From the NCBI GenBank assembly GCA_965216495.1, contig OZ244163.1, positions 96,127-160,126 of the forward strand: DNA of 64,000 nucleotides, read 5' to 3'. The notes below the pieces were generated by a model. The model searched no databases and was not told where the DNA came from. It was given only the letters and a program-made list of their open reading frames with translations. The translations under genes and the position numbers were made by a program. Source of the DNA: Acidimicrobiia bacterium. GTDB lineage: Bacteria; Actinomycetota; Acidimicrobiia; Spongiisociales; ZC4RG35. Shown here piece by piece: positions 4,275-29,213 of the stretch (position 1 is the stretch's first letter; every line of letters begins with the position of its first letter).

Positions 4275-5420
4275 TCAGGCTGGACCTTCGGTTGGTCCTG
4301 TCTGATTGGCTACATCTTCTTCCAGGAGAGTTGCCAAGGTCGCTCCGTTGGCCTTGAGCTGTTGCCTGAAGCCCTCGGCCACCTCATCAGTCCATTCAGC
4401 CTTGGCTGCGTCCCCATTGATTTGGATCCGAATCCGCAATTCGCTCCCCTTCTGGCCCAGATCAGTGAACTCGTAGGTGTGACGATGGAAACTGCCTTCA
4501 CCCAAGTGAGGGAATGAGTACTCGGTGGTCAGGTACGAAAAGGGCTGCCAATCGGCAATGTGCTCGATAATCAGGTCAGGTCCGTGCATGCAATGATTGA
4601 CTGTCCCAACCTGGATTCTTCCCGGCGTCTGTTGCTCGAAACTGTCGATCGAGGCGTTCCACAAAGCGCGCTTCGCCGGATTCGTGATGTACTCCCACAC
4701 CGCTTCTTTTGGGGCAGCGAACTGCCTGGTCTCACTCAGATCCGCGTCTGTCTCAGTGATATAGACCCGGTTTCGCTCTAGTTCGAAGGCCCATCTGTTG
4801 GCGAGGTCGGCCACGTAGACCTCGACCTCACCCACATCTGAAACGTTCTCGGTGAACTTTACGAAGCCCAGAATCTCGGCATTCATCCCGAACTCCTCGA
4901 AGGTGCGCGCGGTGTACACCGCATAAGCCGGTTGCCCGAAAGCCGAGCCAGCATCCCCCTTCATCAGGCGATGAACCAGGATCACGTCTGTTCCGGTGAG
5001 CTCCTCAGTGCCCGCAATCCGGCGCACACCGAACTCCCCGTGGTGGACAAAGTACTTGAGGTCGAGTTGGGGGATCAGAACACACGCGTCGCATTCACAG
5101 CTCGTTGCGTTGTCGATATCACGCAACCGTCGCTTGAAGGCGAAGTAGCCGGCTTCGACTGTGTCGAGGATGATCGTTGGACTGACGGATCCGTCACGGG
5201 CGTAGGCAAATGCGGCGTCTCCTTCGAGCTTCGAGAGAGTAAACGTCGGAGCCAGGGTGGCTACGAGTGTCTCTAAGAGGTCAGCCAAAACGTCCTGAGC
5301 GTGCTCAAGCTCCGTCGCCTGGAGGTAGCGCGTATATCCCGAGATGTCGGCGAGCAGCAGACAGCCACTTTCAGTCTGGGTGAGTGTTTGCACGGAATCG
5401 CAGGATAACGCTGGAGGCAA
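4275..5420 (-). CDS. hypothetical protein with C-terminal SRPBCC (AHSA1/polyketide-cyclase-like) domain
   Basis: 381 aa ORF. The C-terminal ~150 aa have the SRPBCC-like pattern; the N-terminal domain was not recognised. Confidence 0.45.
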   Translation of the reverse strand: MPPALSCDSVQTLTQTESGCLLLADISGYTRYLQATELEHAQDVLADLLETLVATLAPTFTLSKLEGDAAFAYARDGSVSPTIILDTVEAGYFAFKRRLRDIDNATSCECDACVLIPQLDLKYFVHHGEFGVRRIAGTEELTGTDVILVHRLMKGDAGSAFGQPAYAVYTARTFEEFGMNAEILGFVKFTENVSDVGEVEVYVADLANRWAFELERNRVYITETDADLSETRQFAAPKEAVWEYITNPAKRALWNASIDSFEQQTPGRIQVGTVNHCMHGPDLIIEHIADWQPFSYLTTEYSFPHLGEGSFHRHTYEFTDLGQKGSELRIRIQINGDAAKAEWTDEVAEGFRQQLKANGATLATLLEEDVANQTGPTEGPA

Positions 5421-10585: not shown

Positions 10586-11389
10586 ATGATCAGCGGCCAC
10601 GCAAGCAGTGGAGCAGCGGAGCTGTATTACGAAGACGAGGGGGACGGAAGCCCCGCTCTATTCATCCATGCCGGTGTGGCCGACTCCCGCATGTGGAAAC
10701 ACCAGATGGATTTGGGGGGGGTGCGCTCCGTAGCTTTCGACCAGCGTGGATTCGGCAAGACGGCGATGGTTGAGGAGCCATATGCCGACTGGAAGGACGC
10801 CGTGGCCGTCCTCGACGAGCTGGGCATCGATAAGGCCAACATCGTGGGATGTTCTCTCGGTGGGAGCATCGCGCTTCATCTGGCGATCGCGGCTCCTGAG
10901 AGAGTCAACTCCCTGGTCCTCATCGGTGCCGCGGCCGGGGGTTGGGAACCGATCGGCGGCTGGCCCGAGGATCCCCTCTGGGACGAAGCCATGACTGCAT
11001 TCAAAGAGGGAAACCTGACAAAGGTGATCGACATTGATGCTCAACTCTGGTTGGCCGGGCCACGCCGATCGCTCGGCGACATCGACCCTGGCCTGATCTC
11101 GCTGTTCCGGGACATGGATCGCATCGCCATGGGCACAGAGGAAAGGCGAAGAGAGTTCGTAGAGCGGTTCGAGCCACCCACCAACGATCGACTCGACTCA
11201 ATCTCCGTCCCCACATTGGCAGTGGTCGGTGAGTTCGACGTGCCCGACCTCATTGAATCGACCCACTACTTGGCTGAGAAGCTGAGCGACATCCCTCCGG
11301 TCGTCATTCCAAGGGCAGCCCATTTGCCTAGCCTCGAAGAGCCAGACGTCTTCAACCAGGCACTGTTGGGCTTCCTGTCGACCGTCTGA
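10586..11389 (+). CDS. alpha/beta-fold hydrolase
   Basis: GCSLGGSIALHLA nucleophile-elbow motif; 267 aa. Lies on the opposite strand between rplA and rplJ. Confidence 0.7.
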   Translation: MISGHASSGAAELYYEDEGDGSPALFIHAGVADSRMWKHQMDLGGVRSVAFDQRGFGKTAMVEEPYADWKDAVAVLDELGIDKANIVGCSLGGSIALHLAIAAPERVNSLVLIGAAAGGWEPIGGWPEDPLWDEAMTAFKEGNLTKVIDIDAQLWLAGPRRSLGDIDPGLISLFRDMDRIAMGTEERRREFVERFEPPTNDRLDSISVPTLAVVGEFDVPDLIESTHYLAEKLSDIPPVVIPRAAHLPSLEEPDVFNQALLGFLSTV

Positions 11390-13956: not shown

Positions 13957-14034
13957 TGGCAGGGGTGGAGGGACTCGAACCCCCAACCTCCGGTTTTGGA
14001 GACCGGCGCTCTAGCCAATTAGAGCTACACCCCT
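13957..14034 (-). tRNA. tRNA-Trp (anticodon CCA)
   Basis: Reverse complement folds as a cloverleaf: acceptor AGGGGTG/CACCCCT, anticodon loop CTCCAAA, T-loop GGTTCGAGTCC, 3' CCA encoded. Canonical position upstream of secE. Confidence 0.85.
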
Positions 14035-14097
14035 AGGGGGTTCGCGGGTCGTCAAAGTATAAGACCGGTCGGCTCCCTGTGGAAAGTTGAGCGGGAT

Positions 14098-14200
14098 ATA
14101 GGGGACGCCCGAACGCGGAAGCGTTCGTGCCGTCCCCGGATTGTTGTAGTGGATTAGGGGACGCCCGAACCCGGAACAAGTTCTCGCTGTTCCTTCTAGA
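14098..14200. repeat. two direct copies of TAGGGGACGCCCGAAC(g/c)CGGAA, each forming a GC-rich hairpin
   Basis: Copy 1 is a nested perfect inverted repeat GGGGACG-CC-CGAACGC-GGAA-GCGTTCG-TGC-CGTCCCC. Copy 2 is GGAACA-N9-TGTTCC. Both lie between tRNA-Trp and the upstream minus-strand gene. Confidence 0.5.
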
Positions 14201-14417
14201 TCCTCCCTGTCTGATCGTGATCAGCGTGCAGGTGTCCGAGATCTCGTCACCATTCCATATTTAACTGAACCGTGGTGTTGCGTGAGCTGAGCCCAGTGAC
14301 GAGCAGTTAGCTCGTATCTGAAGGAGGAATTGGTCACCCTCAATCGGACAGTGACGACTGGAGCGAACGAACTCGGTGCGGCTCACCTAGACGGGTGCTG
14401 CAATCTTTGGATGTTCG

Positions 14418-14918
14418 TTATGGAAGGGGTGCTTCGAGTTCAAGATCGAGCATTAGGTCTACCCAGCCCACTAGGCGAGATTTCCACTCTTCGTATTCGA
14501 CAACGGGATTTCCGTCGTACATGAAGTCGCCGACGTCCTCGCGGACCTCATCAGAGAACATCATTGCACCGCGGGTCAAGAAATCGCCAGCGTCGCAATC
14601 TGGCGTCAGGCCGGTCTCTCTCATGTGCAGGTTCGCGAGCTGGCTAACAAGGGTTTCAACATCATATAGGCGGGAGCTCCAGGACTGACCCCGAACTGTC
14701 TCAGGGCTGCCGATGACAGTGAGTACCCTCTCATTCATCTCTGTCCCCCACTCCAAGGCAACTTCCTGACACGTCGTTCCGGTGAATTCAGGCCGGTCGC
14801 TGTCGCAGGCGCCGATCGACCGGGGTAGGCCGTCGCAAGAGTCGGGACGAAGCGCTAACAAGCCAACAACGACGGCACCCACCGCCAAAAAGCTGGCAAC
14901 GATCAGAATCCGTTTCAA
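14418..14918 (-). CDS. secreted/membrane-anchored hypothetical protein
   Basis: N-terminal signal/TM (MKRILIVASFLAVGAVVVGLLAL) and several Cys. No family recognised. Confidence 0.5.
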   Translation of the reverse strand: MKRILIVASFLAVGAVVVGLLALRPDSCDGLPRSIGACDSDRPEFTGTTCQEVALEWGTEMNERVLTVIGSPETVRGQSWSSRLYDVETLVSQLANLHMRETGLTPDCDAGDFLTRGAMMFSDEVREDVGDFMYDGNPVVEYEEWKSRLVGWVDLMLDLELEAPLP

Positions 14919-14990
14919 GCCTTCAACCTTTCGAACAATCCAACCGCCTTGGGTCGGAGGAGCTGCCTCCGACCCAGGACGAACGTAGTC

Positions 14991-15600
14991 TCAACAGTCG
15001 GTTGAGATATAGGTAGCTCCACTAGTCGCGATCGTATAGGGCGCGCTGTAGTCCGACGTAGCCGTATTGGTCTCAATCTTGACTGTGGCCTTGTATCCGG
15101 CGTTGTTCGTGACGTTGAATACGGCCGAGGGGATTAATCGGCTGACCAGAACACTGGCTCCAACGTCGTATCGAGACTCGTATTTGCCCCACGTCTCAAC
15201 GGTTTTGGTTGACGGCGCATTCCATCGAAGTCGGACCTGCATCTCGAATTGGAAGTTCCCATCCGCTTTGCAGTGAGTCCTCGAAGTCGTGCCAGCTGGC
15301 AGAACTATCCAGCCCGTATCATCGCTCCACCAGCAGAGAACGCAGTCTTTCTTGCTGCGCCATTTGTATTCCAGGACACACGATGACAATCCGACCGGAC
15401 AGTCGTTCAAGATCGAGCCCGAGTCGAAGGTGACGCGTGCTGTGGATCCGTTATCTGTCACATGACCAGCCATGTTGTTGTCTCCTCCCACGACCTGCCC
15501 ATCGGCGGCCTGCGCAGGTAGCGTGTTAGCGATGAATAGCGCAGCCAGCGCTATTCCAACGACCAGCATTCTGCGTCCATTCACAAGTGCAAGGCTCATC
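14991..15600 (-). CDS. secreted Cys/Trp-rich hypothetical protein
   Basis: Start taken at MSLALVNGRRMLVVGIALAALFIANTLPAQA (signal peptide); the mature part is Cys/Trp-rich. The ORF-track N-extension was judged unlikely. Confidence 0.5.
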
Positions 15601-15795
15601 TTGTCTTCTCCTTTAGATCGTGCCTTGATGCGTTGGTGAGCTTGCGGGAGGGCTACGCAGGCGTCTATCCCCAGTTGCGGGTAAATCTGTAGCCAGATTG
15701 AGTGATTTGCGTACCCAAAACCGGGCAAGTGTCTTCTTCCAACGCTGCTGATGGTATGGCTAGGGTGGTGTCGACTGAATTCTTAGGGGGTCGAC

Positions 15796-16251
15796 GTGGT
15801 GGACATCGTGGACATCGTGCGCGTCAGTCTGGTCGTAGCAAACACGAGCCTGTTCGGGTACCTGATACTCACTGGACTCAGAGAGCGGTCGGCTAACCGA
15901 GGTCCCGGAGTTCGGTTGATGCGCAGAGCGGCGTTGGCAGCCTACGGTGCCGTCTTTGTCGGGGGACTGCAGCGCATAATCCTCCAAGGTGTCCCATTGG
16001 GACTTGTAAACGACGACGCTCTAGACCCAATACTCGAGACCTATGCTTACGTTCAGGCGGCGGTGGTGCTGAGCCTGGGGGTCGTCTGCTGGCGCTCGTT
16101 AACAATGGCTACGCACCGATTGAGGGCTTCAGACGACCTGCTTGCAGCTTTTGGGGGTGCGCTTCCGGATGTCGACTGGTCCGGAGTGCATTTGACGCCA
16201 CGAGAGCGAGAGGTCGCGGACGTTTGGGAAACGACAGCGCTACCTGAATGA
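15796..16251 (+). CDS. hypothetical protein (possibly the frameshifted 5' part of a longer gene)
   Basis: 151-aa Val-rich ORF with an internal tandem 9-mer (gtggacatc x2). It ends 1 nt out of frame with a downstream HTH-coding frame. Confidence 0.3.
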   Translation: MVDIVDIVRVSLVVANTSLFGYLILTGLRERSANRGPGVRLMRRAALAAYGAVFVGGLQRIILQGVPLGLVNDDALDPILETYAYVQAAVVLSLGVVCWRSLTMATHRLRASDDLLAAFGGALPDVDWSGVHLTPREREVADVWETTALPE

Positions 16252-16405
16252 AATTCTCCCAATTCTCACGGATATCAAACTCGAAGCTATCGCCCAAGCA
16301 ACCGGCCTCTCCCTCGGCTACTGCTCATTCATCCGGCGTGGCATCAAGACACCACATCCGAGACACTGGCAAGCTCTAGCAGCACTCGTCCAACGAGTCG
16401 GCTAG
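16196..16405 (+). other. startless XRE-family helix-turn-helix coding frame (cryptic small regulator or frameshifted C-terminus of the upstream ORF)
   Basis: Frame +1 relative to 15796..16251 translates to ...KLEAIAQATGLSLGYCSFIRRGIKTPHPRHWQALAALVQRVG*. This matches the XRE pattern L-x3-A-x3-G-x-S-x4-S-x-I-(E/R)-R-G-x3-P-x7-LA. No in-frame ATG/GTG/TTG lies between the upstream stop (16193) and the TAG at 16403. Confidence 0.4.
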
Positions 16406-16407
16406 CG

Positions 16408-16423
16408 CATATTGCCGGTTATG
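16408..16423. repeat. palindromic motif copy G (CATATTGCCGGTTATG)
   Basis: Inverted-repeat motif CATA(A/T)-N6-TTATG, 3 bp after the XRE-frame stop. Confidence 0.5.
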
Positions 16424-16498
16424 GGTTGGTGGGGGTGGATGGACAGGCCCTCTCAAAGCTGTTTCGTGACTTGAGTTCAGGGTTGATCACCCATGCGG

Positions 16499-16945
16499 TT
16501 ACGGGTTGCGAGCCCATGGCCGTTCTTCCACGACGAACCAGAGGCCTGCTACGGAAAAACCCAGGGGAAAGAGGAGTAGGAGTGATCCAAGAATGATTGA
16601 CCCGATGCCTGCGGTAGTGACGTTGGTGGGGTCAGCCGGGTCGTAGCGGACGTCTAGTACATCACCTTCGGCATCGAACGCCGACGTGGCAATCCAGGTC
16701 TCCACTTGTTGTCCGTCTGAAGTCGTGAAGGCCACGGTTGCCTCGAAGCCGGTCTGGGAACTCCCGGAAGCATCCGAGAGGAGAGTGCCTGAAGTTGTCT
16801 CCCCGCTTGTAAGCAGGCGGATGTCGGTCCACGTTTCTGCGACGTTGTAGCCGAACCATGCGAGGACGAGGATCGTTAACGCGACTGCGCCGATCCAAGT
16901 CCACCATCTCTTTAGATCTAGTTTCCGTCCCAAGCCAGGCTGCAT
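16499..16945 (-). CDS. DUF3592-like membrane protein
   Basis: N-terminal TM, beta-rich middle (GTLLSD...VRYDPADP) and C-terminal TM. The start was taken at the internal MQPGLGRK. Confidence 0.55.
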   Translation of the reverse strand: MQPGLGRKLDLKRWWTWIGAVALTILVLAWFGYNVAETWTDIRLLTSGETTSGTLLSDASGSSQTGFEATVAFTTSDGQQVETWIATSAFDAEGDVLDVRYDPADPTNVTTAGIGSIILGSLLLLFPLGFSVAGLWFVVEERPWARNP

Positions 16946-17052
16946 TCTCGCATTACGGACCCAACCAACGCGGGGCTGCTGCTCAAACACAAGGAGCAAA
17001 TAGCGGCAGATATGAGCGGCTTTGCGCACGGATCAGGCTGGTTGGTGGCTGT

Positions 17053-17448
17053 TCACGCCAGACCTGCGAGACCCCAAATCAAGAGACCAAGCCCTAGTGC
17101 CACAAGCAAAGGAACGACTAGCAGCAACGGTGAGCTCATGAGTCCACGCCCGTAGTCGACGGATGTTCCCCACCACGCTGGGCCTTGGAAGTACGAGATA
17201 TCAATCGAGTCCCCAGCTTCATGGCTGCTGTAAAGGTGCTGCCAGACTTCTACCACATGCTCGGATCCATCAGGTAGTTCAACAGTCAACAAGAAGGACT
17301 CCCCTCCTTCTCTTCCACCTAGGTCATGACGCTTTGCTTTGACCTCAGCAGCCGCTCGGCGAAACAGAGCCAGCCGGTAAACCAAAGCAAGCACAGACGG
17401 AACCAAAACAATGATCCCTAACACAACGGCGGTTGTGGGCTGCACCAC
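17053..17448 (-). CDS. DUF3592-like membrane protein (tandem paralog)
   Basis: Same TM-beta-TM architecture (ESFLLTVELPDGSEHVVEV...), 131 aa. Confidence 0.55.
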   Translation of the reverse strand: MVQPTTAVVLGIIVLVPSVLALVYRLALFRRAAAEVKAKRHDLGGREGGESFLLTVELPDGSEHVVEVWQHLYSSHEAGDSIDISYFQGPAWWGTSVDYGRGLMSSPLLLVVPLLVALGLGLLIWGLAGLA

Positions 17449-17492
17449 AGCTCAACCTATCGTCCGATCACACTTGGAGTCGGATTGGCCTA

Positions 17493-17508
17493 CATAACGG
17501 CACATGTG
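17493..17508. repeat. palindromic motif copy A (CATAACGGCACATGTG)
   Basis: 45 bp upstream of the minus-strand DUF3592 gene start (17448). Confidence 0.5.
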
Positions 17509-17622
17509 CGCCTTCAGGCACAACGCCGAGTTCCATCAGCGGACGTTGTTCCTTCGGATCGGGGCATCGGAACCTAGCGCGCAGACGCAGCCGAGGTACT
17601 GGTGTCCATGCACCTAGCTGCA

Positions 17623-17638
17623 CATAACGGCACATATG
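17623..17638. repeat. palindromic motif copy B (CATAACGGCACATATG)
   Basis: 27 bp upstream of the ATG at 17666. Confidence 0.55.
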
Positions 17639-17665
17639 TCGTGGTTGGCTGGGTAGCTTCGACGC

Positions 17666-18148
17666 ATGCCAGACGAATTCTTCTTCCTTACATTTGGTGG
17701 TCTTGGTGTTTCCCTGGCTGGGTTCGCTGGACTGATTCATGCCCTGGACCGCAGCGATAGCGCAGACAACCCTGAGACCAAGTGGCGTATCCGCAACATT
17801 GTCATGGGTGGGTTCACCGTGGCTCTGGCCGGGCTGCTCACGTGGCCGGTGTACGGGTTCACTCAGGATGTGGATACGACTGTGCGGATCGTCTCGGCCT
17901 ACTTCGTCTTAGGACTAATCCGTCAGTTCGCTGTGGATGCGAGGCCGGGACCGGCCTGGCCCAACGACACCCGCCGCAAGGTCTTCCTAGGCATCGGAGT
18001 TGCGCTTGGGGTCGTGGCCGTAATCAACGTATTTGCTGCATCAGTAGCCTTACTGGAACTGCTGTTCTTCTTGGCAATCGGGGGCCCGATCGGCACCTTC
18101 ATCAGAGCGATCGGCGATCTCCACGACCCGGCGGAGGCGAGCGCATAA
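17666..18148 (+). CDS. small polytopic membrane protein (hypothetical)
   Basis: 160 aa with 4-5 predicted TM helices. The stop TAA is embedded in motif copy C. Confidence 0.55.
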   Translation: MPDEFFFLTFGGLGVSLAGFAGLIHALDRSDSADNPETKWRIRNIVMGGFTVALAGLLTWPVYGFTQDVDTTVRIVSAYFVLGLIRQFAVDARPGPAWPNDTRRKVFLGIGVALGVVAVINVFAASVALLELLFFLAIGGPIGTFIRAIGDLHDPAEASA

Positions 18149-18159
18149 CGGCACATATG
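18144..18159. repeat. palindromic motif copy C (CATAACGGCACATATG)
   Basis: Contains the stop codon of the 17666..18148 ORF; 22 bp upstream of the EamA gene. Confidence 0.55.
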
Positions 18160-18181
18160 AGCGTGGCGTAGGGTCCTTGCG

Positions 18182-19066
18182 ATGGATGGGAGGCTGGACC
18201 GCGCCGGTCTGAGGTTGTTTCTTGCCTATTCGGTGCTGGCTGGTGGGAACGCAGTGGGGGTCCGGTTTTCTAATCGCGAGTTGGACCCTTTTTGGGGTGC
18301 GACTTTCCGGTTCGGGACTGCTGCGGTCTTGATGCTTGTTTTGATGGCAGTGCTGGGTCATCGGATTCCGCGAGGTCGAGCTCTGGCCGGTGCAGCGTTG
18401 TATGGCCTGTTGGCTTTTGGGGGTGCGTTCGCTTTCGCGTTCTACGCCTTGGTCGAACTCGAAGCTGGTTTCGGCCAGATCCTGCTCTCGGTCGTGCCGC
18501 TGGTCACCCTTCTGCTTGCATCAGCTCAGAAACTCGAACGGCTGAAAGGGTCTGCTGTTGCGGGCGCACTCATCTCGCTTGCAGGAGTCGTCGTGATGTC
18601 AGGCCTGGGCTTTCAAGGTTCGCTTCCGCTCCCGTCGATCCTTGCCGGAATCGGTTCAGCCGTTTGCTTTGCTCAAGCGTCTCTTACGATCAAACGTTTC
18701 CCCGAATCTCATCCCATCGTCGTCAACGCAGTCGGCATGGCCGCCGGTGCCGTGTTCCTCGGCCTTGTGACCTTGGTTGCCGGCGATGACATCGCCCTGC
18801 CACAACAATCCGACACTTGGTGGGCGATCGTATACATGGTGCTAATCGGCTCGATCGCGGTCTTCAGTATTTACGTGGCACTCCTTGAACGCTGGGAAGC
18901 CTCAAGAGCCAACTACGGGTTCGTGATCATCCCCATCGTCACCGTCTTGGTGTCGGCCTGGCTACTCGACGAGCCGATCAGCATTGGACTGGCCTTTGGA
19001 GGAGCATTAGTACTAGCGGGCGTGTACCTCGGAGCGCTTCGACGACCAGCCACAACCCGCCCATAA
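18182..19066 (+). CDS. EamA/DMT-superfamily transporter
   Basis: Ten-TM architecture with two EamA-like repeats; 294 aa. Confidence 0.75.
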   Translation: MDGRLDRAGLRLFLAYSVLAGGNAVGVRFSNRELDPFWGATFRFGTAAVLMLVLMAVLGHRIPRGRALAGAALYGLLAFGGAFAFAFYALVELEAGFGQILLSVVPLVTLLLASAQKLERLKGSAVAGALISLAGVVVMSGLGFQGSLPLPSILAGIGSAVCFAQASLTIKRFPESHPIVVNAVGMAAGAVFLGLVTLVAGDDIALPQQSDTWWAIVYMVLIGSIAVFSIYVALLERWEASRANYGFVIIPIVTVLVSAWLLDEPISIGLAFGGALVLAGVYLGALRRPATTRP

Positions 19067-19077
19067 CGGCACTTATG
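19062..19077. repeat. palindromic motif copy D (CATAACGGCACTTATG; perfect CATAA/TTATG arms)
   Basis: Contains the EamA stop codon; upstream of the MFS gene. Confidence 0.55.
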
Positions 19078-19147
19078 CCGCCTGGCGGATGCGTGCATAC
19101 TGCCGGTTCTCGGGCGGCGTGCCGCATTCGCTCCAGGCTGCGGGACC

Positions 19148-20413
19148 GTGGTCCGATATGGTCGTGAGATGTCGCAGTCGGATGTTCCACGTCGGGCCGG
19201 CGCAGTCATCTCTGATCCCGATGGCCGTTTGCTTCCGCTCCTCCTTCTGACGACTGCCCTTGTCTTGGGCATGTCGACCTGGTTCTCAGCCACGGCAGTG
19301 GTGCCCCAACTCACGGATGCCTGGTCCCTGTCCAATACAGGTAGGGCTTGGCTCACAATTGCGGTGATTCTCGGCTTTGTTGTTGGGGCTGTCTTTTCGG
19401 CTGCCTTGAATATCGCTGATCGAGTGCGCCCTCAGTTGGTGATGCTGGTGGGTGGGGTAGGTGCCGGGATCGCGAATCTAGGGTTGATCTGGGCTGGAGG
19501 GGCAGAGATCGGCGTGGTGCTCCGCTTCGTAACCGGCTTCTTCATTGCCGGCATCTACCCGCCTTCGTTCAAGCTGATCTCGACGTGGTATCGGAAGGGC
19601 CGGGGTATGGCCTTGGGTGTCCTGGCTGCGGGGATCGTCTTCGGTAACTCGACTCCTCACTTGGCTAACGGTCTAGGTGGCATCGACTGGCAGAGCGTCA
19701 TCTACGCCACGACGGTCATGTCCATAGGTGGGGGTGTGGTGGCGTTCGTGGTTAGGGATGGGCCTTTCGAGTTCCCACGATCGGTATTCGATCCCCGCCA
19801 GGTCGGTCTGGTATTCGCCAACCGGGGTGTGAGGCTGGCTTCGATCGGCTACTTCGGTCATATGTGGGAGTTGTTCGCCATGGCAGCCTGGTTCTTGATC
19901 TTCTTCGGCGACCACCTCGTTGCCTTGGGTCAGCCGGCACTGCCGCACGCAGCATTCGTGACTTTCGTCGTCATCGCTATGGGAGCCGCAGGCTCGTGGG
20001 CTGGTGGGTTCATCGCCGACCGATGGGGACGGACCAACTTCACCGCGCTCATGCTCACGATCTCAGGACTGTGCTCACTCGGCATTGGCCTTCTGTTCGA
20101 TGGACCAACGTGGCCAATCGTAGTTGTCGGTCTCGTATGGGGGTTCACGGTCGTGGCCGACTCAGCACAGTTCTCCGCCATGGTCACCGAGGTGGGTGAC
20201 CAGTCCTATGTGGGGACGGCCCTGACCATGCAGATCGCCATAGGGTTCACCATCTCCGCAGCAACTATCTGGATCATCCCCCTCGTGGAAGAACTCACAA
20301 CATGGAGATGGGCATTCGCGGTCCTCGCCCTAGGGCCCCTTCTAGGCATATGGGCAATGCTTCGCCTAAAACGTCTTCCGGAGGCAGCCAAGATCGCTGG
20401 CGGGCTGGGATAA
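19148..20413 (+). CDS. MFS transporter
   Basis: 12-TM major-facilitator-like sequence, 421 aa. Confidence 0.75.
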   Translation: MVRYGREMSQSDVPRRAGAVISDPDGRLLPLLLLTTALVLGMSTWFSATAVVPQLTDAWSLSNTGRAWLTIAVILGFVVGAVFSAALNIADRVRPQLVMLVGGVGAGIANLGLIWAGGAEIGVVLRFVTGFFIAGIYPPSFKLISTWYRKGRGMALGVLAAGIVFGNSTPHLANGLGGIDWQSVIYATTVMSIGGGVVAFVVRDGPFEFPRSVFDPRQVGLVFANRGVRLASIGYFGHMWELFAMAAWFLIFFGDHLVALGQPALPHAAFVTFVVIAMGAAGSWAGGFIADRWGRTNFTALMLTISGLCSLGIGLLFDGPTWPIVVVGLVWGFTVVADSAQFSAMVTEVGDQSYVGTALTMQIAIGFTISAATIWIIPLVEELTTWRWAFAVLALGPLLGIWAMLRLKRLPEAAKIAGGLG

Positions 20414-20446
20414 GTCGCACCGCCTCCTTTCCAGGAAGAACCAACG

Positions 20447-20462
20447 CATATCGGCACTTATG
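20447..20462. repeat. palindromic motif copy E (CATATCGGCACTTATG)
   Basis: Lies in the 54-bp gap between the convergent MFS and membrane-domain ORFs. Confidence 0.5.
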
Positions 20463-20467
20463 TGAGG

Positions 20468-22231
20468 TCAGGCGGTGGTCGGGCTGAGAATCGCCAATGC
20501 GAGGATGGTCCAGCCAACAACGGTTCCCATCAAGGCGACTTCCAGTAGTCGTTCGTCGATCCCCGAAAGGACAGCTCCCATCGGTAGTGAGGCGACGAAG
20601 AGCCAGGCGAGCAGTCGAGGAGCGAAGCTGTATCTCGGAAGGAGTTGATTCCGGAGCACCTGGCCGCCTATCAGGAAGAGAGTGACGACTATCGACAGCA
20701 TGGTTGCTAGGGCAGCGGGACCAAACAGACCGTCGTCCCCGTCGATGATGTAAGCCACACCGGCGACAGCACCTCCCACCGCCGCAACCCACGCAAGAAT
20801 CGTGACCAGCCGAGGAAACCTGTCGATCCGGTCTCTGATACCGTAGACCAGCAGCAGAATCGAAACTCCGAAGAACACCAGAGCAAGTTCAAACCAATAG
20901 TCGGGCTGATCGCCAGTAGCCAGAATGGCGATGCTCTTGTAAGACCACATCACCGCCCCGACCACGGCGAGCAGACCGCTCCATCGCAGCACACCACCAA
21001 CCGTGCCCTGCCACCTCATCATCAGCTCCCTGCACACGCACATAACGGCACATATCGCTCGGGCTAAATGCGATCGGGACCAAGCAAAAAGCCGCTCGCC
21101 AGTTGAGATGACCTCAAAAGAATGAAGGGCATCTGCCGGGTAAGCCAGTGGCACCCAAGAGGCCCGATCCTCGTCCCAAATCGCCAGACCAGAGCAATGC
21201 TGTGCCAGAGGTTGCCTGCCATAGGTGTGAGCTGTTGGCGAACACTCGTAGAACCGCAGCGGAACATCGGGATATGGGTTCCACCGGTTGGATTCGGGGT
21301 CATATCGCGACGCACCCATCTGGTAGTCAACAGCGATCACATCGCCTCCCAGAGCCACGCCCGATGTAGCCAGCGACGTCAAGCCGCTCGACGGCATCAG
21401 TGTCCACTCATCGATGCTGACGTCATATGCGCCCTCTCCTGTGACCACCACCAGGTGCTCATCGGCCCATACCGCTGTAGCTCTGTCATGCAGGCTGGGC
21501 GGCTCGGCAATTGGGGTGGGGTCTCCATTAAGGGGGTCAACCAAGAGCCCCTTCTCTGCGTCAATCACCTCGGAGCCGGTCCAATCCGACAAAGGGTAGA
21601 ACCCTCCGTCGAGCGGCCAATCGTCAATCACTCGCCAAGTGTTCGTTGCCGGATCCCAAGCCGCGGCGTCAGGGGCTCGGGTCCAAATGATCAGCTCCTC
21701 GCCCGTCCAGACGGACCCGTATTTACTGCTCAGGCGCACCGGGCTGTCCGTCAGCTCGCGCCACCTTCCCGTTTCCGGGTTGTAGGCGGCACCTCCACCC
21801 ACCGGAGCGCCTCCACCAAGGCGCTCGCCACCCCAGTAGACCAACTCCTGTCCGGTCCAAGCCTTGACGCCCACCCACCGAGCCGACAGCGGGCCGGGGT
21901 CCAACTGAGTCCAGTCCTCAGAAACGAGGAACTCATCTGGAACGGGCCTTCGCTGTGCAACATCGTCGATCGGGAACGGCAGTGAACGCGTGACATCCGA
22001 CGGAAGAGGCGAGACGTCGATCAAGTACTGCAAATGGTCGATCCCGTCTGCCGACTCGATCGGCGCCGTAGCCGTGCTCTCCGGTGCCGTCGGCGCGCCC
22101 GGATCCTGACCGTCGGTCAGGGCAAAGAGAACCACAAGAATCAGAGCCAGCGCTGCCACGGCCGCTGCGACCCGAGGGCCTCTCATCGAAGACCTGTTAA
22201 CCGCGTGGGCCAGGCGTTCACCGACGTGCAA
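20468..22231 (-). CDS. secreted Kelch-repeat beta-propeller protein fused (or run together) with a C-terminal 6-TM membrane domain
   Basis: N-terminal signal (MRGPRVAAAVAALALILVVLFAL) and repeated ...W..GG...YDP.TN.W... Kelch-like blades. The C-terminal ~185 aa, from MMRWQGTV at ~21023, are polytopic membrane. Motif copy F lies in frame at the junction. These may be two genes: 21060..22231 and 20468..21023. Confidence 0.5.
   Translation of the reverse strand: MHVGERLAHAVNRSSMRGPRVAAAVAALALILVVLFALTDGQDPGAPTAPESTATAPIESADGIDHLQYLIDVSPLPSDVTRSLPFPIDDVAQRRPVPDEFLVSEDWTQLDPGPLSARWVGVKAWTGQELVYWGGERLGGGAPVGGGAAYNPETGRWRELTDSPVRLSSKYGSVWTGEELIIWTRAPDAAAWDPATNTWRVIDDWPLDGGFYPLSDWTGSEVIDAEKGLLVDPLNGDPTPIAEPPSLHDRATAVWADEHLVVVTGEGAYDVSIDEWTLMPSSGLTSLATSGVALGGDVIAVDYQMGASRYDPESNRWNPYPDVPLRFYECSPTAHTYGRQPLAQHCSGLAIWDEDRASWVPLAYPADALHSFEVISTGERLFAWSRSHLARAICAVMCVCRELMMRWQGTVGGVLRWSGLLAVVGAVMWSYKSIAILATGDQPDYWFELALVFFGVSILLLVYGIRDRIDRFPRLVTILAWVAAVGGAVAGVAYIIDGDDGLFGPAALATMLSIVVTLFLIGGQVLRNQLLPRYSFAPRLLAWLFVASLPMGAVLSGIDERLLEVALMGTVVGWTILALAILSPTTA
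21041..21056. repeat. palindromic motif copy F (CATAACGGCACATATC)
   Basis: 18 bp upstream (minus strand) of the ATGATG that begins the membrane domain. It is in frame inside the 587-aa ORF. Confidence 0.5.
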
Positions 22232-27855: not shown

Positions 27856-28017
27856 CTAGCGGGTCTCCCGATGCACCGTATGGCTGCGACAGAACCGGCA
27901 ATACTTCTTCAGCTCAAGCCGGTCCTGCGTATTCGACTTGTTTTTGGTTGTGACGTAGTTGCGACGCTTGCACTCGGTGCAGGCCATCGTCAACGGCGGT
28001 CTCTTATCTGAAGCCAT
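27856..28017 (-). CDS. rpmG: 50S ribosomal protein L33
   Basis: Translates to [53 protein letters not shown] with the Cys4 zinc ribbon. 5 bp downstream of tuf. Absent from the ORF track because it is under the 60-aa cutoff. Confidence 0.85.
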
Positions 28018-28022
28018 GTCTC

Positions 28023-29213
28023 CTACTTGTTGATTTTGGTGACTCGTCCGGCGCCTACGGTGCGGCCACCCTCACGGATAGCGAACCGGAGACCCTCGTC
28101 CATAGCGATCGGAGCGATCAACTCGACAGTCATCTCGGTGTTATCACCAGGCATCACCATCTGAGTCCCCTCAGGCAACTGGATCGACCCGGTCACATCA
28201 GTAGTCCGGAAATAAAACTGAGGCCGATAACCAGGGAAAAACGGGTTATGACGACCGCCCTCTTCCTTAGTCAACACATAAACCTGAGCTTCGAAATCAG
28301 TATGAGGAGTAATACTCCCGGGCTTGGCCAAAACCTGGCCACGCTCAACCTCTTCCTTACCAATACCCCGAAGAAGAACCCCTACGTTGTCACCAGCACG
28401 ACCCTCATCCAACAACTTCCGGAACATCTCAATCCCAGTAGCCACCGTCTTCTGAGTGTCACGGATCCCCACAATCTCAACTTCCTCGTTGACATTCAAA
28501 ATCCCCTGCTCAATACGACCCGTAACCACAGTCCCACGACCAGTAATCGAGAACACATCCTCGATCGACATCAGAAAATCCTTCTCCGTGTCACGCTCAG
28601 GATCCGGAATAAACGAATCAACCGACTCCATCAACTCCATCACCCTGTCCTGAGCATCAGAATCGCCCTCCAACGCAGCCAAAGCAGAACCACGAACCAC
28701 AGGAACATCATCCCCAGGAAACTCATACTCAGTCAGAAGATCCCGAACCTCCAACTCAACCAAATCCAACAACTCCTCATCATCAACAAGATCAGCCTTA
28801 TTAATGAAAACCACAATCGAAGGAACCCCAACCTGACGAGCCAACAACACATGCTCACGAGTCTGAGGCATAGGACCATCATCGCCACCAACCACCAAAA
28901 TCGCCCCATCAACCTGAGCAGCACCCGTAATCATGTTCTTGATGTAATCAGCATGACCCGGCATATCCACATGCGCATAATGACGAGCCTCCGTCTCATA
29001 CTCCACATGAGAAATCGAAATCGTGATACCACGCTCCCGCTCCTCAGGAGCCTTATCAATATTCTCAAACTCAGTGAACTGATTCTCACCACCAACACGC
29101 TCAGCAAGCGTCTTAGTAATAGCCGCCGTCAACGTCGTCTTCCCATGATCAATATGACCCATCGTCCCCACATTCACATGCGGCTTCGTCCGCTCAAACT
29201 TGGCCTTGGCCAT
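28023..29213 (-). CDS. tuf: elongation factor Tu
   Basis: [32 protein letters not shown]...; full-length 396 aa EF-Tu. Confidence 0.97.

What the first reader, a model, noticed from the sequence alone, without database searches (positions are those of the whole stretch)
16408..21056. Seven copies of a 16-bp inverted-repeat motif (CATAA-N6-TTATG) punctuate a run of small membrane-protein/transporter genes
CATAACGGCAC(A/T)TATG recurs at 17493, 17623, 18144, 19062, 20447 and 21041, plus a variant CATATTGCCGGTTATG at 16408. Every copy is intergenic or at a gene junction; flanking sequence is not conserved. Five copies sit 18-86 bp upstream of a start codon: the DUF3592 gene, the 160-aa membrane protein, EamA, MFS and the 6-TM domain. 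Two copies contain the TAA stop of the preceding gene, and one lies between convergent genes. The arms CATAA/TTATG are exact reverse complements, which is the geometry of a dimeric HTH-repressor operator; nothing in a standard feature list accounts for it. The other readings are a REP/MITE-like element, or cassette boundaries, since each gene or gene pair is bracketed by copies.
Basis: seen in the sequence. Interest (0 to 1): 0.7.

Follow-up and report, generated by a model that had tools for sequence, protein, structure and literature searches.

The report
Recombination sites bounding mobile gene cassettes
The repeated 16-base motif is the core of a 28-base recombination site that separates single-gene cassettes in an integron-like gene-capture array of marine Acidimicrobiia, driven elsewhere by a dedicated Xer-type recombinase; no paper in the searched library holds the motif.

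Summary
The repeat is real and far above chance. Six near-exact copies plus one degenerate copy of CATAACGGCACWTATG lie on the + strand within 4 kb. It is not an operator.

Across about 90 copies from related metagenome genomes the motif extends to a 28-bp site: inverted arms CGCnCATAA / TTATGnGCG around an invariant asymmetric 6-bp centre, CGGCAC. This is the 11-6-11 layout of Xer/dif sites.

B often sits 18 nt after an A site.

In more than 30 Acidimicrobiia contigs these sites bound units of about 0.9 kb, mostly one ORF in either orientation, with diverse cargo.

In ten independent loci a 301-aa Xer-family tyrosine recombinase sits between two mirror-image arrays. Upstream sites are 22/22 "+" and downstream sites 42/43 "-". 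This enzyme is not XerC/D and not IntI.

In four genomes, the window included, the array lies beside tRNA-Trp–secE.

The window holds a recombinase-less half-array. 3.2 kb of it is 99.85% identical to the array of a species whose core genes are only about 75% identical.

Verdict: cassette boundaries of an integron/dif-module-like platform. None of the literature searches found it described. All evidence is computational.

The parts
13957..14034 (-). tRNA-Trp (followed by secE, nusG, rplK, rplA). Chromosomal anchor of the array.
   Evidence: ARAGORN and Rfam. The same anchor occurs in L001, L113 and L124. Their first site lies 121-176 bp upstream of the tRNA.
16402..16429 (+). Type-B site (AGCGCATAT TGCCGG TTATGGGTTGG). 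Outermost site of the array and left edge of the block shared with L001.
   Evidence: B sites are also outermost in L090, L124, L125 and L227.
16499..17029 (-). Cassette gene, DUF3592-like membrane protein.
   Evidence: Pfam, E-value 3.5e-5.
16993..17020 (+). Degenerate type-A site (core AATAGCGGCAGATATG at 16999-17014).
   Evidence: PWM score 17.3 bits against a shuffle maximum of 10.
17053..17448 (-). Cassette gene, 131 aa, unknown function.
17487..17514 (+). Type-A site (core 17493-17508, CATAACGGCACATGTG).
17617..17644 (+). Type-A site (core 17623-17638). The 130-bp unit 17493-17623 has no convincing ORF.
17666..18148 (+). Cassette gene, 160-aa membrane protein. Its TAA stop lies inside the next site.
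18138..18165 (+). Type-A site (core 18144-18159).
18182..19066 (+). Cassette gene, EamA transporter. Its TAA stop lies inside the next site.
   Evidence: Pfam, E-value 1.4e-31. The identical protein is encoded in L001.
19056..19083 (+). Type-A site (core 19062-19077). The only copy with perfect CATAA/TTATG arms.
19090..19117 (+). Degenerate type-B partner (CATACTGCCGGTTCTC), 18 nt after the A site. Together they form the window's only A-B composite.
19148..20413 (+). Cassette gene, MFS transporter.
   Evidence: Pfam, E-value 3.9e-21.
20441..20468 (+). Type-A site (core 20447-20462) between convergent genes. Compared with the homologous L089 cassette, a 31-nt stretch holding the B partner is missing here.
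20468..21043 (-). Cassette gene, 6-TM membrane protein. Its possible start codon is the CAT of the next site.
   Evidence: 76% aa homologue occurs as a stand-alone cassette in L089.
21035..21062 (+). Innermost type-A site (core 21041-21056). In complete elements the recombinase gene follows 52-67 bp after such a site. Here it does not.
16404..19650 (.). Block 99.85% identical to L001 8223-11470. L001 is a species whose core genes are 74-80% identical to the window's.

Best explanation
**What it is.** The motif copies are core recombination sites of a chromosomal gene-cassette platform found in a clade of (mostly marine-sediment) Acidimicrobiia. Each site is about 28 bp. Two inverted 9-11-bp arms (CGCnCATAA / TTATGnGCG) would each bind one recombinase monomer. 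They flank a 6-bp asymmetric centre.

**How it most likely works.**
- Strand exchange takes place in the centre. The centre gives the site its direction and must match between partners.
- Class A (CGGCAC) and class B (TGCCGG) would therefore be heterospecific.
- The enzyme is a dedicated 301-aa Xer-family tyrosine recombinase. In complete elements it is encoded between two mirror-image arrays, bracketed by inverted A sites.
- Recombination between direct sites within one arm excises a cassette as a circle. The reverse reaction inserts it. Recombination between sites of opposite arms inverts the middle.
- The recombinase gene lies between inverted sites, so excision cannot remove it.

**What the window holds.** It holds one arm only: B, seven A sites and six genes. 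The arm is anchored next to tRNA-Trp/secE, has no recombinase, and its right arms are decaying. It is probably an immobilised remnant, comparable to an integron CALIN. Part of it was exchanged recently with another species.

**Shown versus inferred.**
- Shown: site architecture, arrays, the link with the recombinase, the anchor, and cassette-level homology breaks.
- Inferred: binding, cleavage positions, circle formation, A/B incompatibility.
For: - **Enrichment and clustering.** 6 copies against 0.02 expected. The PWM scan hits only positions 16999-21056.
- **Extended 11-6-11 logo** from 91 unique copies. It matches the classical dif layout described in PMC6449649.
- **Arrays.** 32 of 121 loci from a genome-collection scan carry at least 2 copies. 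Nearly all are Acidimicrobiia or Actinomycetota contigs, with the copies on one strand.
- **Units.** 63 units have a median of 871 bp and mostly one ORF. ORF orientation relative to the site is 28 forward to 24 reverse.
- **Recombinase found in array loci** by phmmer.
  - It is Xer-like but far below the XerC/XerD equivalog cut-offs: about 140 bits against about 330.
  - The catalytic residues R, K, H, R, H and Y are invariant.
- **Ten independent recombinase loci.** Upstream sites are 22/22 '+' and downstream sites 42/43 '-'. The nearest A site lies 52-67 bp before the start codon and 6-15 bp after the stop.
- **Same anchor.** tRNA-Trp/secE flanks the array in the window, L001, L113 and L124. 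In L124 the recombinase is also present.
- **Crossover position.** A cassette shared by L089 and L097 keeps 95% identity from the centre of one A site to the centre of the next, then diverges immediately.
- **Horizontal transfer.** A 3248-bp block is 99.85% identical between the window and L001, whose core genes are about 75% identical. Its left edge lies at the B site.
- **Reshuffling.** Homologous cassettes have different neighbours in different arrays.
- **Cargo is diverse**.
Against: - There is no experimental evidence and no direct observation of excised circles or alternative arrangements in reads.
- The window has no recombinase within 64 kb.
- The window's sites score below the family median, with poor right outer arms. 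They may be inactive.
- The right edge of the block shared with L001 (19650) is not at a site. L001 is a 4x-coverage metagenome contig, so mis-assembly cannot be excluded.
- The role of B sites and of A-B composites is unexplained by a simple double-strand model.
- Recombinase relatives at 61-71% identity mostly lack these sites.
- The genome-wide distribution of the motif in the window's own genome could not be examined.
Confidence: 0.8

Rival explanations
1. **True integron-style mechanism.** The functional unit is the A-18-B composite, folded as a single-stranded hairpin (an attC analogue). Solitary A or B sites are decayed halves.
For: - 37 of 120 A sites have a B partner, always downstream on the same strand. 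The preferred gap is 18 nt.
- B is an inverted A with its centre shifted by 1 nt. Composites fold into stems of about 22 bp with one bulged C and one bulged G in 20 of 22 cases.
- Outer arms are conserved and inner arms are degenerate (A strong-left, B strong-right). This mirrors the R''/R' versus L''/L' pattern of attC sites.
- AAC and GTT triplets occupy the positions they hold in attC sites.
- The window's 20447 junction differs from its L089 homologue by loss of exactly the B site.
Against: - Two thirds of junctions have a single site.
- The L089/L097 cassette breaks at A-site centres with no B present.
- Paired arm positions of A and B show no covariation beyond the shared consensus.
- The recombinase lacks the IntI-specific insertion that reads extrahelical bases.
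- Top and bottom strands fold about equally well.
Confidence: 0.2
2. **Host XerC/XerD acts on the sites**, as with Acinetobacter pdif modules and IMEX elements. The neighbouring Xer-like gene would be cargo or a regulator.
For: - The sites have the dif layout.
- Their inner arms CATAA/TTATG equal those of E. coli dif (own knowledge).
- The window and L001 arrays persist without a local recombinase.
Against: - A conserved paralogue sits between the arrays in 10 of 10 complete loci at fixed distances from inverted sites.
- Both arms resemble one consensus rather than distinct XerC and XerD arms.
- The right arm lacks the widely conserved XerD-side TTATGTnAAnT (own knowledge).
Confidence: 0.1
3. 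**Operator of a dimeric transcription factor** controlling membrane-protein and transporter genes.
For: - The arms are partly palindromic.
- Several copies lie 22-70 bp upstream of start codons.
Against: - Copies also lie downstream of genes and between convergent genes.
- The site strand is constant whatever the gene strand.
- No promoter-like sites coincide with the copies.
- The cargo elsewhere is unrelated to membranes.
- The invariant part is the asymmetric centre, not the arms.
Confidence: 0.02
4. **REP/MITE-like selfish repeat** or a transcript-end structure.
For: - The sequence is short, intergenic, repeated and partly palindromic.
Against: - The copies are confined to arrays.
- Only 28 bp are conserved. 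There are no terminal repeats or target duplications.
- Single sites fold no better than shuffles, with z-scores from -2.2 to +1.0.
- No terminator-like features coincide with the copies.
Confidence: 0.03

Closest known systems
Integrons (IntI + attI + attC cassette arrays; CALIN when the integrase is missing)
   Same: - Chromosomal arrays of mostly single-ORF cassettes with diverse, often unknown functions, each bounded by a recombination site.
- A tyrosine recombinase of the Xer-related group is encoded next to the array.
- Recombinase-less arrays exist, like the window's.
- Composite A-B sites resemble attC: two inversely oriented simple sites, conserved outer boxes, bulged bases, AAC...GTT.
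   Different: - The recombinase lacks the IntI insertion. It has 25 aa where IntI4 has 65, and the integron-integrase model matches only the last 65 aa.
- Most junctions are simple 28-bp sites.
- Cassette ORFs point either way, so no single Pc promoter can serve them.
- The recombinase sits between two mirror-image arrays instead of at one end next to an attI.
- The host phylum has no complete integrons according to IntegronFinder 2.0.
Acinetobacter plasmid dif modules (pdif sites, XerC/XerD)
   Same: - 28-bp sites with an 11-6-11 layout and palindromic inner arms.
- The sites bound small accessory-gene modules.
- Recombination is expected only between sites with matching 6-bp spacers.
- IS elements are found next to the sites (PMC10132070, for pdif; IS110-family genes here).
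   Different: - pdif sites have distinct XerC and XerD arms and alternate in orientation (C and D modules). They lie on Rep_3 plasmids and use the host XerCD.
- Here both arms follow one consensus.
- The sites are direct repeats within an arm.
- The platform is chromosomal.
- A dedicated paralogous recombinase is encoded in the middle.
Chromosomal dif/Xer and elements that exploit it (IMEX)
   Same: - Site geometry and inner arm sequence: E. coli dif is GGTGCGCATAA TGTATA TTATGTTAAAT (own knowledge).
- The recombinase's best matches are XerD, XerC and XerA.
   Different: - dif is a single site at the replication terminus.
- Here there are many sites next to the ribosomal-protein/tRNA-Trp cluster, with no GC-skew switch in the window.
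- The recombinase scores far below the XerC/XerD thresholds.
Shufflons and other multiple-inversion systems (e.g. Rci/sfx)
   Same: - A tyrosine recombinase is flanked by inversely oriented sites, so inversions of the central segment are possible.
   Different: - Shufflons rearrange segments of one gene.
- Here independent whole genes are bounded by mostly direct repeats.

Membership tests
Integron | Integrase of the IntI type, carrying the additional domain between the catalytic Lys and the HxxR motif | tested here: not met
   - TIGR02249 matches only residues 216-280: 72 bits against a cut-off of 265.
- Against IntI4 (2a3v), the query has 25 aa where IntI4 has 65.
- The K180-to-H242 spacing is 62 aa. 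It is 72 in XerD and 106 in IntI1 (own knowledge).
Integron | attC sites: imperfect inverted repeats R''-L''...L'-R', 57-141 bp, folding with extrahelical bases | tested here: inconclusive
   - About 31% of junctions carry an A-18-B composite of 50 bp or more that folds with two bulges.
- The other junctions are single 28-bp sites.
- There is no arm covariation.
- The IntegronFinder attC model could not be run.
Integron | attI and Pc next to intI, at one end of a co-oriented array | tested here: not met
   - The recombinase lies between mirror-image arrays.
- ORF orientation is 28 to 24.
Integron | Array of small, mostly single-ORF cassettes of diverse function, each bounded by a recombination site | tested here: met
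dif modules (pdif) | 28-bp site: two 11-bp arms with palindromic inner parts and a 6-bp spacer | tested here: met
   Logo. The definition comes from PMC6449649.
dif modules (pdif) | Distinct XerC and XerD arms; neighbouring sites inversely oriented (alternating C and D modules) | tested here: not met
   - All sites of an arm share one orientation.
- Both arms fit one consensus.
- The definition comes from PMC13141974.
dif modules (pdif) | Recombination by the host's housekeeping XerC/XerD | not testable with these tools
   A dedicated Xer-like paralogue is encoded in the arrays. The host xerC/xerD and dif were not available in the sequences held.
Xer/dif chromosome-dimer resolution site | Single site per chromosome at the terminus; recombinase is a XerC or XerD equivalog | tested here: not met
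   - Nine sites lie within 4.7 kb.
- There is no skew switch in the window.
- XerD scores 139.7 against a cut-off of 329.6, and XerC 134.2 against 335.
Transcription-factor operator | Fixed position and orientation relative to promoters or start codons of a regulon | tested here: not met
REP/MITE | Dispersed intergenic copies with a stable hairpin, or terminal inverted repeats with target duplications | tested here: not met
   - In the window the copies are confined to one array.
- The folds are not significant.
- Genome-wide dispersal was not testable.

The most novel reading that the evidence does not exclude
This is a sister, or precursor-like relative, of integrons. A Xer-type recombinase without IntI's extra domain would work on both plain double-stranded dif-like sites and hairpin-forming composites built from two inversely oriented simple sites with bulged bases. 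It would be a living intermediate, showing how attC sites and integron-type gene capture could have arisen from Xer/dif recombination. It would also extend cassette-based adaptation to Actinomycetota.
Probability: 0.2. Interest if true: 0.95.

Novelty: new variant of a known kind. Interest (0 to 1): 0.8.

Why it matters
- **Phylogenetic reach.** Gene-cassette platforms are known from integrons (mostly Proteobacteria) and from Acinetobacter dif modules. Actinomycetota are reported to lack complete integrons. A dedicated cassette system in Acidimicrobiia would show that this way of acquiring genes arose, or persisted, in another phylum with a different enzyme-site pair.
- **Cassette mining.** The invariant 16-bp core gives a direct handle for fishing cassettes out of sediment metagenomes by PCR or by pattern search, as attC primers did for integrons.
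- **Engineering tools.** The two site classes differ only in the spacer. With a compact Xer-like enzyme, they are candidates for orthogonal recombination tools.
- **Evolution of integrons.** The A-B composites make the Xer-to-integron question experimentally testable.

Tried and rejected
- **Single-strand folding** of each window site ±30 nt: not better than shuffles. Single sites are therefore not hairpin elements.
- **Rfam and tRNA scans:** only tRNAs were found.
- **Pfam on window ORFs 14-30 kb, plus phmmer with array recombinases against all window ORFs:** no recombinase in the window.
- **Reading 16408 as a reversed A site with an indel:** rejected once the same centre, TGCCGG, recurred 24 times in other genomes with a fixed position relative to A.
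- **Metagenome scan with the recombinase profile:** it returned mostly 61-71% relatives from high-GC soil contigs without A/B sites. It did not add arrays, but it showed that the sites belong to a subclade.
- **GAAC-N-GTTC motif** near tRNA-Trp as a second site family: not recurrent.
- **Viral and plasmid collections:** only single chance matches, or none.
- **Literature searches** for the motif, for Acidimicrobiia integrons and for Xer-like cassette arrays: nothing matching.
- **Covariation test** for the A-B hairpin: negative.
- **All-against-all DNA comparison of array loci:** few shared cassettes. One reason may be that the collection holds one genome per species.
Full report
**1. The observation**

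A search for CATAACGGCACWTATG with up to two mismatches finds six copies, at 17493, 17623, 18144, 19062, 20447 and 21041. All are on the + strand. Shuffles give 0.02.

The strict palindrome CATAA-N6-TTATG is met by only one copy. The invariant part is the asymmetric centre CGGCAC.

A position-weight matrix built from copies in other genomes scores only seven places in the 64-kb window above 8 bits. These are the six copies plus a degenerate one at 16999. All are on the + strand between 16999 and 21056. Scores run from 17 to 34 bits, against a shuffle maximum of 10.

The copies sit at gene junctions:
- Two contain the TAA stop of the upstream gene.
- One lies between convergent genes.
- One overlaps the probable start of the 6-TM gene.

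**2. The site is longer than 16 bp and comes in two classes**

A scan of one genome per species for the exact 16-mer returned 120 stretches. 32 of them hold two or more copies. Nearly all of those are Acidimicrobiia or Actinomycetota metagenome contigs of 57-61% G+C, with the copies on one strand 0.2-3 kb apart.

Ninety-one unique copies give the logo a.CCGCaCATAA CGGCAC TTATG.GCG.ct. That is inverted arms of 9-11 bp around a 6-bp centre. It is the layout of dif sites: two 11-bp arms, palindromic and conserved on the inside, and a 6-bp spacer (PMC6449649).

- Class B has 24 strict copies, against 65 for class A.
- Thirty-seven of 120 A sites have a B partner. It is always downstream on the same strand, most often 18 nt away.
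- The window has one such composite, with a degenerate B at 19096.

**3. The sites bound cassettes**

Sixty-three site-to-site units have a median length of 871 bp (range 130-2859). Most hold one ORF, in either orientation relative to the site (28 to 24).

Several ORFs use the site's TAA as stop or its ATG as start, in both directions.

Ninety-five cassette ORFs hit 82 Pfam families. These include methyltransferases, luciferase-like oxidoreductases, cyclases, glyoxalases and transporters. The window's membrane proteins are therefore incidental.

A 264-bp cassette is present in both L089 and L097. It keeps 95% identity from the centre of one A site to the centre of the next, and diverges immediately outside. 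This is the signature of crossover in the central region.

Homologous cassettes have different neighbours in different arrays. The window's 6-TM gene has a 76% identical homologue as a separate cassette in L089.

**4. The recombinase**

No tyrosine recombinase is encoded in the window. Array loci, however, encode a 301-aa Xer-family enzyme:
- Its best models are XerD and XerC, at about 140 bits against cut-offs of about 330.
- The integron-integrase model matches only its last 65 residues.
- Its best solved relative is XerD.
- It has 25 residues where IntI4 has 65, so it lacks the integron-specific insertion.
- The catalytic residues R154, K180, H242, R245, H268 and Y277 are invariant in twelve members.

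Ten independent loci were examined: L090 (a complete 2.6-Mb chromosome), L097, L122, L124, L125, L126, L127, L226, L227 and L231. In them the sites upstream of the gene are 22/22 on its strand, and the sites downstream are 42/43 on the other strand. An A site lies 52-67 bp before the start and an inverted A site 6-15 bp after the stop.

The platform is therefore two mirror-image arrays around the recombinase gene, often ending in B sites.

Relatives at 61-71% identity, mostly from high-GC contigs in JGI metagenomes, lack these sites. The site-enzyme pair belongs to a subclade.

**5. Chromosomal anchor and the state of the window's array**

The window's array lies upstream of tRNA-Trp–secE–nusG–rplKA.

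The same anchor is seen in L001, L113 and L124. L001 and L124 are about 76% identical to each other in core genes. Both have a B site at the orthologous place, 121-133 bp from the tRNA. L124 continues B, A, A, recombinase.

The window reads B(16408), then seven A sites, then a Kelch-repeat gene:
- The conserved recombinase leader is absent after the last site.
- No inverted sites follow.
- The window's sites have poor right outer arms.
- One junction has lost exactly its B partner relative to L089.

I read the window as a recombinase-less, decaying half-array, comparable to an integron CALIN.

Even so, 3248 bp of it (16404-19650) are 99.85% identical to L001, whose ribosomal and nusG/secE genes are only 74-80% identical to the window's. 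The left edge of this block is at the B site. This points to recent transfer of a multi-cassette block.

There are caveats. The right edge lies inside the MFS gene, not at a site. L001 is also a low-coverage metagenome contig.

**6. Mechanism**

The most likely mechanism is classical tyrosine-recombinase exchange between double-stranded sites with identical centres. Direct sites would give excision and integration, and inverted sites would give inversion. A and B would be heterospecific classes, as spacer identity governs pdif recombination (PMC13141974). Binding, cleavage positions and circle formation are inferred, not shown.

A rival reading is that the A-18-B composite works as a folded single strand, like attC:
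- *For:* B is an inverted A with its centre shifted by one base. Composites fold into stems of about 22 bp with a bulged C and a bulged G. Outer arms are conserved and inner arms are weak.
- *Against:* most junctions are single sites, the mapped crossover is at A centres, and there is no arm covariation.

**7. Comparison with known systems and novelty**

The system works like an integron or a dif-module set, but it fails the defining tests of each:
- It has no IntI-type integrase, no attI/Pc end and no co-orientation.
- Its sites do not alternate and do not have separate XerC/XerD arms. It is not plasmid-borne.
- It is not a single terminus dif site.

The literature searches found no description of the motif or of such arrays. 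IntegronFinder 2.0 reports no complete integrons in Actinobacteria.

I rate it a new variant of a known kind: a site-specific-recombination cassette platform. All evidence is computational and rests largely on metagenome assemblies.

Noticed in passing
window 20468-22231 (-): A single open 587-aa ORF joins a Kelch-repeat protein to the 6-TM cassette protein. It reads straight through the A site at 21041, which encodes ICAVMCV. The 6-TM part is a separate cassette in L089. The fusion may therefore be accidental read-through or a real chimeric protein.
   Followed up: partly
window 14099-14176: Two copies of TAGGGGACGCCCGAAC(G/C)CGGAA lie 56 bp apart, 65-140 bp upstream of tRNA-Trp. The first is part of the inverted repeat GGGGACGCCCGAAC-N8-GTTCGTGCCGTCCCC. 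A search for similar GAAC/GTTC sites near recombinase relatives found nothing recurrent.
   Followed up: partly
window 14086-16403: 2.3 kb lie between tRNA-Trp and the B site. The orthologous place in L001 and L124 has none of it. It holds three ORFs without Pfam hits, plus an ORF tail (…LSLGYCSFIRRGIKTPHPRHWQAL) that ends 2 nt before the B site. The tail is out of frame with ORF 15796-16251, so there may be a frameshift.
   Followed up: partly
window 19650 / L001 11470: The near-identical block shared with L001 ends inside the MFS gene with no site nearby. L001 also has a 1-nt indel near 11313 that breaks the gene. The cause could be a deletion, an assembly error or a chimera. It is unresolved.
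   Followed up: partly
L122 4858-5894; L226 519-1115; L228 63-1100; L231 7230-8255: IS110-family transposase genes lie inside or at the edge of four arrays. In L228 the gene ends 49 bp from a B site. This recalls IS families that target attC or pdif sites.
   Followed up: no
L097 5348-5377 and 5393-6767: A third site type has perfect 12-bp arms: GGTAGCACATAA TGTCTG TTATGTGCTACC. It lies 23 bp before a second recombinase paralogue. That gene is followed by a small helix-turn-helix ORF (MSEGRVTLSEAAQILGVHRNTIRNWV…), possibly an excisionase-like factor. A truncated copy of the main recombinase lies next to it (4594-5145).
   Followed up: no
window 17493-17638: Two A sites lie only 130 bp apart with no convincing ORF between them. 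This could be an empty cassette or a remnant.
   Followed up: no
L113 190-205: The A site next to tRNA-Trp points the opposite way from the first sites of the window, L001 and L124. The mirror-image rule does not explain this. The contig ends 190 bp further on.
   Followed up: no
L227 8188-9467: After two B(-) sites at the outer end of the downstream arm comes a B(+) site. A second element may abut the first.
   Followed up: no
L129 4975-5000, L130 4389-4414: A recombinase 71% identical to the query is followed by CCCGAA CTGCCGG TTCGGG. The arms have diverged but the centre is similar to class B. This hints that sites and enzymes co-diverge.
   Followed up: no
window 28001-29000: A dip in G+C (0.51) with strong negative GC skew coincides with the EF-Tu gene (28023-29213, minus strand). 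It is probably codon-usage bias of a highly expressed gene.
   Followed up: no
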